A stretch of DNA of 64,000 bases from NCBI RefSeq assembly GCF_051903065.1, contig NZ_CP178438.1; one strand, 5' to 3'. The notes under the pieces are model-generated. The model had not been told where the DNA came from and searched no databases. It saw only the letters and a list, made by a program, of their open reading frames with translations. This document shows, piece by piece, positions 12,387 to 17,350 of this stretch. Positions within the stretch are counted from its first letter, which is position 1, and each line of letters starts with the position of its first letter. Both the position numbers and the translations under genes were made by a program. This stretch comes from Escherichia coli (lineage in GTDB: Bacteria > Pseudomonadota > Gammaproteobacteria > Enterobacterales > Enterobacteriaceae).

Positions 12387-12470
12387 GCCGCTTTATTATC
12401 GAGTTCGGTGACCGCCAGGACGGTCACTTCTGAGAAAAGGCATTTACACAGAATCTTAAACAGGTTCACG
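12387..12470 (+). mobile_element. IS256-family terminal fragment (3' end with terminal repeat), opposite orientation to adjacent transposase pseudogene
   Basis: Direct repeat of 622-700; terminal sequence ggcatttacacagaatcttaaacaggttcac mirrors the sequence at 12358-12386. Confidence 0.5.
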
Positions 12471-13108
12471 CAGCACTGGCGTCAGGGCATTGATTGTCGC
12501 TTTCACTGATTTGCTCCGGTTTCCCGTGGTCAGACTGCGCACTTTCTCCTTCAGCCTGTTCACACTCGTCAGGGCTATTTTCAGCTTCAACTGTTTGTGC
12601 CATGTCATACTGTACCCGAGGAACTTCTGCTCCCACGGGCGCGCCACCGCGCTCTTCTTCTCATTCACTTTCTGCTTCAGTTTGTTCTCTACGACGTCCT
12701 GATACCATCCAGCAATGGCCGCCCTGCGGCATGCCTTCCTGCCATTTCTCTCTTTGCCCGTCCCGGACTATTTCCTCTTTCAAGTAGCGGCGTATCAGCC
12801 TCAGCACCCGCCTGTCCTTTATCGTACTGGCCAGACGCGTCATCAGGAGTCTGTGATCCACACGGTCGAAGAACTTCTCCAGATTTATATCCACCACCCA
12901 CCGTTTGCTGCCCCGTATATAATGCTGTGCCTATTGCACTGCCTGCCATACGTTGCGTCCCAGCCGGAAACCGTGCCTAGAGTCTGAGAAGCTTTTGTCC
13001 ACGATGGCGCTTAAATGTTGCGCTATAGCTATAGCCTGCTGGATAGGCCTATCCACCACTGTCGGGATGCCTAAGGTTCTCACGCCGCCATCATGCAGCT
13101 CTGACGGA
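12471..13108 (-). pseudogene. Group II intron-encoded reverse transcriptase/maturase remnant (frameshifted, internally deleted, truncated at both ends by IS insertions)
   Basis: RT motifs GIPTVVDRPIQQA and DINLEKFFDRVDH; C-terminal maturase-like RPWEQKFLGYSMT; split across overlapping ORFs in different frames. Confidence 0.65.
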
Positions 13109-13172
13109 TGAGGTAGCCTGAGTTTAACGGACACTCCTTCCTGAAATAGAATGGCATCAGAAGGAGCTAATA

Positions 13173-13435
13173 ATGAGCAGAAAAACCCAACGTTACTCTA
13201 AAGAGTTCAAAGCCGAAGCTGTCAGAACGGTTCTTGAAAATCAACTTTCGATCAGTGAAGGCGCTTCCCGATTATCTCTTCCTGAAGGCACTTTAGGACA
13301 ATGGGTTACCGCCGCCAGAAAAGGGCTCGGTACTCTTGGTTCCCGCACGGTGGCTGAACTGGAATCTGAAATTCTGCAACTGCGTAAGGCGTTAAATGAA
13401 GCTCGCCTTGAGCGAGATATATTAAAAAAAGCCGT
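13173..13435 (+). pseudogene. IS600-like OrfA, disrupted by IS30 insertion 5 bp downstream of the A7 slippery run
   Basis: MSRKTQRYSKEFKAEAVRTV...ERDILKKA then IS30 left end; continuation [10 protein letters not shown] follows IS30 right end at 14657. Confidence 0.75.
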
Positions 13436-15564
<2,129 letters not shown>

Positions 15565-15573
15565 CCACTTCAT

Positions 15574-15897
15574 GTCGTTGAACTGCATAATACTGGCCCA
15601 AGCACCGCAACCAGTCTTGCTGCGCTTATCGCTTTATGTTCGATATTGCTGGCAAAACCAGTACAGGAACAGATGGTGGTGTTGGGCAGTATGACGCTTG
15701 GTGGAGTAATTAACCCGATACAAGATCTTGCTGCCAGTTTACAGCTCGCCTTCGACAGCGGCGCAAAACGAGTTCTGTTGCCGATGTCCTCGGCTATGGA
15801 TATTCCAACGGTTCCGGCAGAGTTATTTACCAAGTTTCAGGTGAGTTTTTACTCAGACCCGGTTGATGCTGTTTATAAGGCGCTGGGTGTGAATTAA
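15574..15897 (+). pseudogene. Lon-like protease C-terminal domain fragment (possibly BrxL-like), 5'-truncated by IS600-like element
   Basis: In-frame translation from IS boundary: ...NTGPSTATSLAALIAL...MTLGGVINPIQDLAASLQLAFDSGAKRVLLP... parallels Lon DGPSAG...[30 protein letters not shown]; no N-terminal ATPase region present. Confidence 0.5.
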
Positions 15898-15983
15898 TGT
15901 AGTAACTATTTTAATGAACTGGAGAGGACAATGGCTCAAGAACGTTCTGTAATTAAATTCATCAGACCGGTAATGACTCCAAC

Positions 15984-16487
15984 TTATTGATAGTGTTTTA
16001 TGTTCAGATAATGCCCGATGACTTTGTCATGCAGCTCCACCGATTTTGAGAACGACAGCGACTTCCGTCCCAGCCGTGCCAGGTGCTGCCTCAGATTCAG
16101 GTTATGCCGCTCAATTCGCTGCGTATATCGCTTGCTGATTACGTGCAGCTTTCCCTTCAGGCGGGATTCATACAGCGGCCAGCCATCCGTCATCCATATC
16201 ACCACGTCAAAGGGTGACAGCAGGCTCATAAGACGCCCCAGCGTCGCCATAGTGCGTTCACCGAATACGTGCGCAACAACCGTCTTCCGGAGCCTGTCAT
16301 ACGCGTAAAACAGCCAGCGCTGGCGCGATTTAGCCCCGACATAGCCCCACTGTTCGTCCATTTCCGCGCAGACGATGACGTCACTGCCCGGCTGTATGCG
16401 CGAGGTTACCGACTGCGGCCTGAGTTTTTTAAGTGACGTAAAATCGTGTTGAGGCCAACGCCCATAATGCGGGCTGTTGCCCGGCAT
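15984..16487 (-). CDS. insB: IS1 InsB (expressed as InsAB fusion by frameshift)
   Basis: 167-aa ORF overlapping insA in -1 frame. Confidence 0.85.
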
Positions 16488-16681
16488 CCAACGCCATTCA
16501 TGGCCATATCAATGATTTTCTGGTGCGTACCGGGTTGAGAAGCGGTGTAAGTGAACTGCAGTTGCCATGTTTTACGGCAGTGAGAGCAGAGATAGCGCTG
16601 ATGTCCGGCGGTGCTTTTGCCGTTACGCACCACCCCGTCAGTAGCTGAACAGGAGGGACAGCTGATAGAAACAGAAGCCAC
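16406..16681 (-). CDS. insA: IS1 InsA
   Basis: 91 aa [43 protein letters not shown]... Confidence 0.9.
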
Positions 16682-16890
16682 TGGAGCACCTCAAAAACAC
16701 CATCATACACTAAATCAGTAAGTTGGCAGCATCACCGGCTGTTTATGCTACCCGATTCTCAAATCAATTACCGAAAGCTTCTGTTCATCAACTAACTCAT
16801 TACTTTTAATGATGGGGCCCTTTCTGGGGCCCAAGAAATTAACAACGCTAACAAACAACATAAATAACAATAAATTAAATAAAAAATTTC

Positions 16891-16909
16891 ATTCCTGCAG
16901 GGGACACCA
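16891..16909 (+). repeat. Partial copy of argW tRNA-Arg 3' end (att-type direct repeat) marking island boundary
   Basis: attcctgcaggggacacca matches the 3' terminal 19 nt of tRNA-Arg(CCU) argW as recalled; no upstream tRNA body. Confidence 0.65.
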
Positions 16910-17350
16910 GATACCCTTCAAACCAAATCTACCTTCATCCCGTAAACGATGGGTTTGGCAGCACACTTGCCCTATATCTACTCATTTTTACTGCAACAGG
17001 TTGAAATCTCAGCACTGTCAGAAAGCGCTGATGACTAAACAGCCCTGGGCCGGGCGATGTAACCATCACACAGAATCCTGATAGCGAAATATGGCGTGAC
17101 TCGATACTTCACTCCGCAATGCATTCCTTGATGAATTCGCAGGCCCGTGATACACGCGACAGGTCGCTGAATGACGACAATGTCCTGGAAATCAGCGAAC
17201 CGTGTATCCGGAGTACATTTGAGCGACTGTACCAGAACATGAATGAGGTGTTTGGATTAGGCGATTATTAGCAGGGCTAAGCATTTTACTATTATTATTT
17301 TCCGGTTGAGGGATATAGAGCTATCGACAACAACCGGAAAAAGTTTACGT

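What the first reader, a model, noticed from the sequence alone, without database searches (positions are those of the whole stretch)
15574..15968. Lon-like protease C-terminal fragment: possible remnant of a BREX-type defence locus, truncated by IS600 and followed by IS1
Reading in frame from the IS600-like right end gives about 108 aa that parallel the Lon proteolytic domain (GPS motif, then TLGGVINPIQ...AFDSGAKRVLLP versus Lon [15 protein letters not shown]...[11 protein letters not shown]). The Ser of the catalytic motif is present, but the position aligned with the catalytic Lys appears to be Ala (by-eye alignment). Lon-like C-terminal domains without the canonical dyad occur in BrxL of BREX systems, whose gene is last in the operon. 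A short ORF start (MAQERSVIKFIRP) follows and is cut by IS1. IS insertion appears to have deleted the rest of the locus.
Basis: inference. Interest (0 to 1): 0.55.

Follow-up and report, generated by a model that had tools for sequence, protein, structure and literature searches.

The report
Dead tail of a BREX gene
This is the last 109 codons of brxL, the final gene of a BREX anti-phage defence operon, left stranded between two insertion sequences after the rest of the system was lost; it is an ordinary, already-annotated pseudogene scar.

Summary
Window 15573-15897 (+) encodes the C-terminal 109 residues (586-694 of 694) of BrxL of a type 1 BREX system. It is 108/109 identical to intact E. 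coli BrxL. It matches the BrxL models at E=2e-49 (NCBIfam TIGR02653) and 1.5e-39 (PADLOC), against 1e-8 for Lon. It is 65% identical to the solved Acinetobacter BrxL C-terminal domain (PDB 8EIL).

The piece starts exactly at the right end of an IS600 element (itself split by IS30). After a 33-nt spacer come 12 codons of the neighbouring 362-aa gene, cut by IS1. Neither IS has target-site duplications, so both mark deletions or rearrangements.

No other BREX piece is in the 64-kb window. Intact brxA-brxB-brxC-pglX-pglZ-brxL loci with about 97-98% identical DNA over the matched 401 bases exist in other E. coli. The IS600|brxL' junction is shared by 64 of 5426 complete genomes, including ATCC 8739. 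The IS1 junction is shared by only 2, and it accompanies a 13.4-kb loss of island cargo, not of BREX.

NCBI's annotation already calls this fragment a partial 'S16 family serine protease' pseudogene. It has no start codon, no promoter and no ATPase domain, so it is most likely non-functional. Interest is low.

The parts
13109..13435 (+). IS600 (IS3 family), left part with the start of orfA
   Evidence: Most of about 3,100 E. coli copies begin to match at this base (query position 61). Intact copies are annotated 'IS3-like element IS600 family transposase'. The sequence begins TGAGGTAGCC.
13436..14656 (+). IS30 inserted into IS600 (1221 bp; transposase 13498-14649)
   Evidence: Terminal inverted repeats lie at 13431-13461 and 14631-14661. 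There is a 383-aa ORF. PGAP annotates it as an IS30 transposase in the identical locus.
14657..15572 (+). IS600, right part (orfB 14725-15564; right end ...GACCACTTCA)
   Evidence: Two independent copies (L004, L005) end at exactly this base with unrelated flanks.
15573..15897 (+). brxL' pseudogene: the 3' end of brxL. Codons 586-694 are readable thanks to a 5-nt CTTCA overlap with the IS end; stop codon at 15895-15897.
   Evidence: 108/109 aa identical to BrxL WP_001193073.1 residues 586-694. TIGR02653 E=2e-49, profile positions 567-675 of 675. PADLOC BrxL E=1.5e-39. PDB 8EIL E=1.4e-41. PGAP labels it 'S16 family serine protease, incomplete, missing N-terminus'.
15898..15930 (+). Native brxL-orf362 intergenic spacer with the ribosome-binding site GGAGAGG
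   Evidence: Collinear with the intact locus L001 20331-20363.
15931..15968 (+). First 12 codons plus 2 nt of the 362-aa hypothetical gene that follows brxL (MAQERSVIKFIR-)
   Evidence: Matches the start of L001 20364-21452. It is cut by the IS1 end.
15969..16736 (-). IS1 (768 bp; insA/insB on the minus strand)
   Evidence: Inverted repeats. ORFs at 16406-16681 and 15984-16487. PGAP annotates an IS1A transposase. The flanking 9-mers CATCAGACC and GGCTGTTTA differ, so there is no target duplication.
16737..16809 (+). Last 73 nt of a YeeU/CbeA-family antitoxin gene; right edge of the IS1-associated deletion
   Evidence: Window 16737 maps to L006 38229, inside the yeeU-family CDS of strain ZF8-1.
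16891..16909 (+). Displaced 3'-terminal 19 nt of tRNA-Arg argW (island right end, attR)
   Evidence: BLAST of argW plus its flank from island-free strain E6474 (L007 4005-4343) matches window 16891-17229 at 96%.

Best explanation
The segment is a non-functional relic: the last 16% of brxL, the sixth and final gene of a type 1 BREX phage-exclusion operon.

Shown:
- It is homologous to intact brxL, and collinear with the brxL stop, the spacer and the start of the next gene.
- Its 5' edge is exactly the right end of IS600 and its 3' edge is exactly an end of IS1.
- Neither IS has a target-site duplication.
- Nothing else of BREX is in the window.

Inferred history:
1. An island carried intact BREX followed by a truncated orf362 and a zinc-ribbon gene, as in strain EC-16-526.
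2. IS600 entered brxL at codon 586/587. A later IS600-mediated deletion or inter-copy recombination removed brxA to brxL codon 585. This joined the IS to a group II intron remnant on its other side. This state is shared by 64 genomes.
3. IS30 hopped into IS600.
4. In the window's lineage, IS1 inserted 38 nt into the orf362 stub. It then deleted 13.4 kb of island cargo up to a yeeU-family gene, just inside the argW attR.

The fragment lacks the BrxL N-terminal DNA-contacting domain, the AAA+ ATPase and the first ~40% of the Lon/RadA-like C-terminal domain. It has no start codon at its 5' edge and no promoter-like site. It therefore cannot perform BrxL's role, which is an ATP-dependent ring that binds DNA and is needed for restriction but not for methylation. 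This locus provides no BREX defence.
For: - Identity to BrxL 586-694.
- BrxL-specific models score far above Lon models.
- Solved BrxL structures are the top PDB hits.
- Intact operons hold the same DNA at the end of brxL.
- IS600 right end at 15572 and left end at 13109. The flanking triplets GGA and TGT differ.
- The IS600 left flank is a group II intron maturase remnant (H124/H125).
- IS1 boundaries are defined and no 9-bp duplication is present.
- tblastn of all six BREX proteins and orf362 against the window finds only BrxL 586-694.
- ZF8-1 is 99.98% identical over window 3566-15968 and then continues into 13,383 bp that the window lacks.
- Junction censuses: 64 genomes for IS600|brxL', 2 for orf'|IS1, and 0 for the reciprocal brxL-5'|IS600 junction.
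- No promoter-like or terminator-like site and no Rfam family.
- BrxL biology: PMC10164562 and PMC6326788.
Against: - The reading frame of the relic is still open, with no frameshift or internal stop. It is in the same frame as IS600 orfB, separated only by one TGA.
- An internal ATG at 15673 is preceded by AGGAA. Transcription from IS600 and translation of a 74-aa peptide, or rare readthrough, therefore cannot be excluded from sequence alone.
- I did not examine the rest of this genome. An intact BREX elsewhere is possible: strain ZF8-1 has a second brxL-like place.
- The order of the IS600, IS30 and deletion events is inferred, not observed.
Confidence: 0.96

Rival explanations
1. The fragment derives from a housekeeping or stand-alone S16 protease (Lon, LonB, LonC/YcbZ-like), not from a defence gene.
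For: PGAP's generic label is 'S16 family serine protease'. There are weak matches to the Lon models TIGR00763 (E=1.3e-8) and NF008053 (1.1e-7). The Ser of GPS aligns with the Lon catalytic Ser.
Against: The BrxL model scores 168.6 bits against 33.8 for Lon. The fragment is 99% identical to the C-terminus of annotated BrxL inside complete BREX operons. The position of the Lon catalytic Lys is Ala.
Confidence: 0.01
2. The open frame is kept because it makes a small protein: a BrxL C-terminal half-domain. It would be made from the internal ATG at 15673 (74 aa), from TTG at 15646 (83 aa), or by readthrough of the IS600 orfB TGA. Such a protein might interfere with ring-ring contacts of BrxL from an incoming or resident BREX system.
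For: The frame is uninterrupted, and 5 of 6 coding differences from an intact allele are synonymous. The same junction persists in 64 genomes and in two island contexts. The fragment spans the residues equivalent to T658 and Q661, which mediate hexamer-hexamer contacts in the Acinetobacter structure (PMC10164562). It is in frame with orfB.
Against: The synonymous bias is what is expected from divergence between functional alleles before truncation; the truncated copies themselves are >=99% identical, so there is no signal of selection after truncation. There is no promoter-like site. Only about 60% of the domain is present, so folding is doubtful. The relic is further truncated in ATCC 8739 (228 nt) and was cut again here, as expected of neutral decay. 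Being in the same frame as orfB has a 1-in-3 chance.
Confidence: 0.02
3. The rest of the BREX operon was not deleted. It was moved elsewhere in the same genome by an IS600-mediated inversion or transposition, so the system is split rather than lost.
For: The absence of target-site duplications fits inversion between two IS600 copies as well as it fits deletion. Only 64 kb of the genome was available.
Against: No BREX protein other than BrxL 586-694 is encoded anywhere in the window. None of 5426 complete genomes has the reciprocal junction of the brxL 5' part joined to the IS600 left end, although 64 have the junction seen here. Even if the rest were relocated, brxL would stay split and inactive.
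Confidence: 0.02

Closest known systems
BrxL of type 1 BREX (E. coli HS-type; NCBIfam TIGR02653; solved Acinetobacter BrxL, PDB 8EMC/8EMH/8EIL)
   Same: Residues 586-694 are 99% identical to E. coli BrxL and 65% identical (70/108) to the Acinetobacter BrxL C-terminal domain. The match is to the Lon/RadA-like fold region that lacks the Ser-Lys dyad. The native stop codon and downstream spacer are the same.
   Different: Only 16% of the protein remains. The N-terminal domain, the AAA+ ATPase and the first part of the C-terminal domain are missing. So are the start codon, the promoter and the five partner genes.
Lon protease proteolytic domain (MEROPS S16; E. coli Lon, PDB 1RR9)
   Same: There is distant sequence similarity over about 80-95 residues (E=1e-6 to 4e-8). 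GPS aligns with the catalytic-Ser motif.
   Different: The catalytic Lys is replaced by Ala. The published BrxL structure reports no protease catalytic motif and a DNA-binding, MCM-like ring function (PMC10164562). The Ser is Leu in Acinetobacter BrxL.
IS-bounded pseudogene scars in E. coli tRNA-associated genomic islands (argW, selC)
   Same: The fragment is bounded by IS600::IS30 and IS1, neither of which has a target duplication. It lies about 1 kb from the argW attR and among many other partial transposase genes.
   Different: Nothing notable. The same IS600|brxL' module also occurs in a setC/yicL-side island in ATCC 8739.
The second, shorter brxL relic at the nanS-fimB defence hotspot (annotated 'peptidase, missing N-terminus')
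   Same: It is also a 3'-terminal brxL scar left after loss or replacement of BREX.
   Different: It is a different allele (91-93% identity), has a different breakpoint (about 60 codons), sits at a different chromosomal site, and is not IS600-bounded.

Membership tests
BrxL (BREX Lon-related AAA+ protein) | Sequence match to the BrxL-specific profile (TIGR02653 / PADLOC BrxL) | tested here: met
   TIGR02653 E=2e-49, covering profile positions 567-675 of 675. The score of 168.6 bits is below the 628-bit whole-protein cut-off only because 84% of the protein is absent. PADLOC PDLC02506 E=1.5e-39.
BrxL (BREX Lon-related AAA+ protein) | N-terminal domain plus central AAA+ ATPase (Walker A/B) that forms the DNA-binding ring | tested here: not met
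   Only residues 586-694 are encoded. tblastn of full BrxL against the window finds nothing upstream of residue 586. It is therefore a gene fragment, not a functional member.
BrxL (BREX Lon-related AAA+ protein) | Lon/RadA-like C-terminal domain without the Lon Ser-Lys catalytic dyad | tested here: met
   The position of the Lon Lys is Ala in the fragment and in Acinetobacter BrxL. The Ser is present here but is Leu in Acinetobacter. No protease motif is reported in PMC10164562. Only the last ~60% of the domain is present.
Type 1 BREX system | Gene set brxA, brxB, brxC, pglX, pglZ, brxL in one operon | tested here: not met
   The window encodes none of BrxA, BrxB, BrxC, PglX or PglZ. Intact operons are seen only in other genomes. 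This is a remnant of a BREX locus, not a BREX system.
Lon protease (S16) | Ser-Lys catalytic dyad and a fused AAA+ module | tested here: not met
   The Lys is replaced by Ala and there is no AAA+ module. Lon models score 30-34 bits against cut-offs of 608-891.
IS600 (IS3 family) | Canonical ends (TG...CA), orfA/orfB, and a 3-bp target duplication on simple insertion | tested here: inconclusive
   The ends at 13109 and 15572 match other copies, and orfA and orfB are present. However, the element is interrupted by IS30, and the flanking triplets differ (GGA vs TGT). The present flanks are therefore not those of one simple insertion.
IS1 | 768 bp, terminal inverted repeats, insA/insB, 8-9-bp target duplication on simple insertion | tested here: inconclusive
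   The length, repeats and ORFs are met. The duplication is absent (CATCAGACC vs GGCTGTTTA). Comparison with ZF8-1 shows a 13,383-bp deletion at this point.

The most novel reading that the evidence does not exclude
The open, orfB-in-frame BrxL C-terminal half-domain is carried unchanged with IS600::IS30 in 64 genomes and at least two island contexts. The most novel reading is that it is expressed (by readthrough, or from the internal ATG at 15673) and acts as a dominant-negative or decoy against BrxL ring pairing. That would make it an IS-borne anti-BREX or BREX-modulating peptide.
Probability: 0.02. Interest if true: 0.45.

Novelty: already known. Interest (0 to 1): 0.08.

Why it matters
It matters little beyond correct annotation. 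The label 'S16 family serine protease' would be better given as 'brxL pseudogene (BREX remnant)'. The locus shows that this strain's argW island once carried, or acquired a piece of, a BREX defence system that no longer works here. It is a tidy example of how insertion sequences erode defence islands stepwise, and of why the 3' end of the last gene in an operon tends to survive as a scar.

Tried and rejected
- Housekeeping Lon, LonB or LonC origin: rejected by the profile scores.
- Other BREX pieces in the window: none found by blastn or tblastn.
- Simple IS insertion: rejected for both IS600 and IS1 because target duplications are absent and the flanks are not contiguous in related genomes.
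- A surviving brxL::IS600 simple-insertion intermediate: a chimeric junction query found none in 5426 genomes.
- Regulatory or RNA element in the region: no promoter-like site, terminator-like site or Rfam hit.
- The downstream 362-aa gene as a BREX accessory component: rejected. It has no Pfam, NCBIfam, PADLOC or PHROGs match, and its homologues in Acinetobacter and Pseudomonas are not next to BREX.
- Structure prediction was not run, because a solved homologue at 65% identity exists.

Full report
**Observation**

The + strand from 15562 reads TGA (the stop of IS600 orfB). It then reads PLHVVELHNTGPSTATSLAALIALCSILLAKPVQEQMVVLGSMTLGGVINPIQDLAASLQLAFDSGAKRVLLPMSSAMDIPTVPAELFTKFQVSFYSDPVDAVYKALGVN, ending at TAA 15895-15897. 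After a 33-nt spacer that contains GGAGAGG, an ATG at 15931 opens MAQERSVIKFIR. This ORF runs into the end of IS1 at 15969.

**Identity**

- BLASTP against the 694-aa BrxL of E. coli strain 357900 (L001 18246-20330) aligns the fragment to residues 586-694, with 108/109 identities and E=1e-73.
- NCBIfam gives TIGR02653, 'protease Lon-related BREX system protein BrxL', at E=2e-49 over profile positions 567-675 of 675. Endopeptidase La (Lon) reaches only 1.3e-8, and LonB and LonC are weaker still.
- PADLOC gives BrxL at 1.5e-39.
- The best solved structures are the Acinetobacter BrxL C-terminal domain crystal structure 8EIL (E=1.4e-41; 70/108 identical) and the full-length cryo-EM entries 8EMC and 8EMH. 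Lon chains follow at 4e-8 and weaker.
- In the HMMER alignments, the Ser of GPS falls on the Lon catalytic Ser, and the Lon catalytic Lys falls on Ala.
- In Acinetobacter BrxL the Ser position is Leu, so the Ser is not a conserved BrxL feature.
- The structural paper states that the BrxL C-terminal domain resembles the Lon and RadA C-terminal domains but shows no conserved protease catalytic motif. It also shows that BrxL is an ATP-dependent, chambered DNA-binding ring (PMC10164562).
- In E. coli HS BREX, deleting brxL abolishes protection but not methylation (PMC6326788).

**Related loci**

- A megablast of 15566-15968 against 5426 complete E. coli genomes finds 589 genomes with a match.
- In strains 357900 (L001) and EC-16-526 (L008), the matching DNA (98.3% and 96.8% identity) is the 3' end of an intact brxL. 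That gene is preceded by brxA, brxB, brxC, pglX and pglZ.
- In 357900, brxL is followed after 33 nt by a 362-aa hypothetical gene beginning MAQERSVIKFIRPCLSIHEDKK.
- The 460 nt of brxL immediately upstream of the breakpoint occur in only 350 genomes. Many genomes therefore carry 3'-only relics.

**Boundaries and history**

IS600:
- The right end is base 15572. Two unrelated copies (L004, L005) end ...GACCACTTCA at the same base and then diverge.
- The left end is 13109, the base where most of about 3,100 genomic copies begin to match.
- The element is split by a 1221-bp IS30 at 13436-14656.
- The triplets flanking IS600 differ (GGA and TGT). Its left flank is a group II intron maturase remnant.
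- The IS600|brxL' junction therefore results from a deletion or from recombination between IS copies, not from a lone insertion.
- The last five bases of the IS (CTTCA) coincide with the brxL sequence, so the exact crossover is ambiguous within 15568-15572.

IS1:
- IS1 occupies 15969-16736, and its flanking 9-mers differ.
- Strain ZF8-1 is 99.98% identical to window 3566-15968, including the IS600::IS30|brxL' junction, but it has no IS1 at that point.
- In ZF8-1 the sequence continues through a frameshifted stub of orf362. It then runs through two zinc-ribbon genes, Gp2, Hha, a GTPase, Ag43, DUF932, antirestriction, yeeS, yeeT and yeeU, before reaching DUF4942, cscB and so on.
- Window 16737 maps inside that yeeU gene. 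The window therefore lacks 13,383 bp that ZF8-1 has, with IS1 in their place.

Likely ancestral state:
- Homology between the intact locus L001 and ZF8-1 stops about 204 nt into orf362.
- EC-16-526 has intact BREX followed by the same stub and the same zinc-ribbon gene (97.9% over 1018 bp). This is a plausible ancestral state.

Island position:
- The last 19 nt of argW and its native downstream flank lie at 16891-17229.

**Census**

- The IS600|brxL' junction (140-nt probe) is intact in 64 of 5426 genomes, all annotated 'S16 family serine protease' pseudogene next to an IS3-family transposase.
- One of the 64 is ATCC 8739. There the module lies in a different island beside setC/yicL, and the relic is cut again to 228 nt.
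- The exact orf'|IS1 junction exists in only two genomes, 23CRST027 and 23CRST031. These also share the full local arrangement.
- Four other genomes have IS1 a little further downstream of brxL sequence; in three of them (H150-H152) the gene is annotated as brxL. These are independent insertions.
- A chimeric probe for the reciprocal junction (brxL 5' part joined to the IS600 left end) found no genome.
- tblastn of BrxA, BrxB, BrxC, PglX, PglZ, BrxL and orf362 against the whole window returned only BrxL 586-694.

**Function**

The fragment lacks the N-terminal domain, the AAA+ ATPase and about 40% of the C-terminal domain. It has no start codon at its 5' edge. The region shows no sigma-70-like promoter, no terminator and no Rfam match. 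The most likely status is a non-functional pseudogene scar.

The frame is open, and 5 of 6 coding differences from L001 are synonymous. That pattern reflects divergence between functional alleles before truncation. The truncated copies are >=99% identical to each other, so they carry no information about selection after truncation.

The frame coincides with IS600 orfB and is separated from it by one TGA. An internal ATG at 15673 follows AGGAA. For these reasons I leave about 2% for an expressed peptide.

**Comparison and novelty**

BrxL and BREX are known, and IS-mediated erosion of genomic islands is known. NCBI's pipeline already flags this exact fragment as an N-terminally truncated pseudogene. 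The contribution here is a more precise name (brxL remnant) and a reconstructed order of events.

Noticed in passing
window 15931-15968; L001 20364-21452: The 362-aa gene downstream of brxL (WP_000046510.1) belongs to a family of ~360-aa 'hypothetical' proteins. The family is spread across Enterobacterales, Vibrio, Aeromonas, Acinetobacter, Pseudomonas, Bordetella and Massilia. It has no Pfam, NCBIfam, PADLOC or PHROGs match. In Acinetobacter and P. aeruginosa it stands alone at the edge of variable or mobile regions, not next to BREX. It is an uncharacterised island cargo gene.
   Followed up: partly
L014 6998-7177 (E. coli MS1657), matching window ~15721-15897: A second, different brxL 3' relic of about 60 codons, 91-93% identical and annotated 'peptidase' or 'hypothetical protein'. 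In the one genome inspected (MS1657) it sits at the nanS-fimB defence hotspot, next to a phosphorothioate-dependent restriction endonuclease gene. Records with a 90-95% identical partial match number 181. Intact BREX occupies that same site in strain 357900.
   Followed up: partly
window 15969-16809 versus ZF8-1 (L002 12404 onward; L006 38229): Relative to strain ZF8-1, the window lacks 13,383 bp of island cargo, with IS1 in its place and no target duplication. The missing cargo comprises two zinc-ribbon genes, Gp2, Hha, an HTH regulator, a GTPase, the Ag43 autotransporter, DUF932, antirestriction, yeeS, yeeT and most of yeeU.
   Followed up: yes
window 16891-16909: The last 19 nt of tRNA-Arg argW, followed by the native argW-downstream flank. 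This marks the right end (attR) of an argW-integrated island. No intact argW is in the window, so the island extends beyond base 1.
   Followed up: yes
L015 (E. coli ATCC 8739) 6683-9293: The same IS600::IS30|brxL' module occurs in ATCC 8739, but in an island beside setC/yicL. There the relic is cut to 228 nt and joined to an AIDA-repeat gene fragment. The scar therefore travels as part of a mosaic island segment.
   Followed up: partly
window 13436-14656: A complete IS30 (1221 bp, with an intact 383-aa transposase) is nested inside IS600 orfA. IS600 without it measures about 1244 bp.
   Followed up: partly
window 12456-13108, minus strand: Degraded group II intron reverse transcriptase/maturase fragments abut the IS600 left end. 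Further left lie IS66 tnpA/B/C (with an internal stop) and IS21, IS4 and IS3 fragments, so the area is an IS graveyard.
   Followed up: no
H150-H152 (strains 1916D18, MARGA_3, ETEC1746): In genomes where the gene is annotated as brxL, IS1 copies sit about 80 bp beyond the window's IS1 site, in the same AT-rich region downstream of brxL. These are independent insertions and suggest a local IS1 target preference.
   Followed up: no
window 15562-15575: IS600 orfB and the brxL relic are in the same reading frame and are separated only by the orfB TGA stop. This is probably coincidence.
   Followed up: partly
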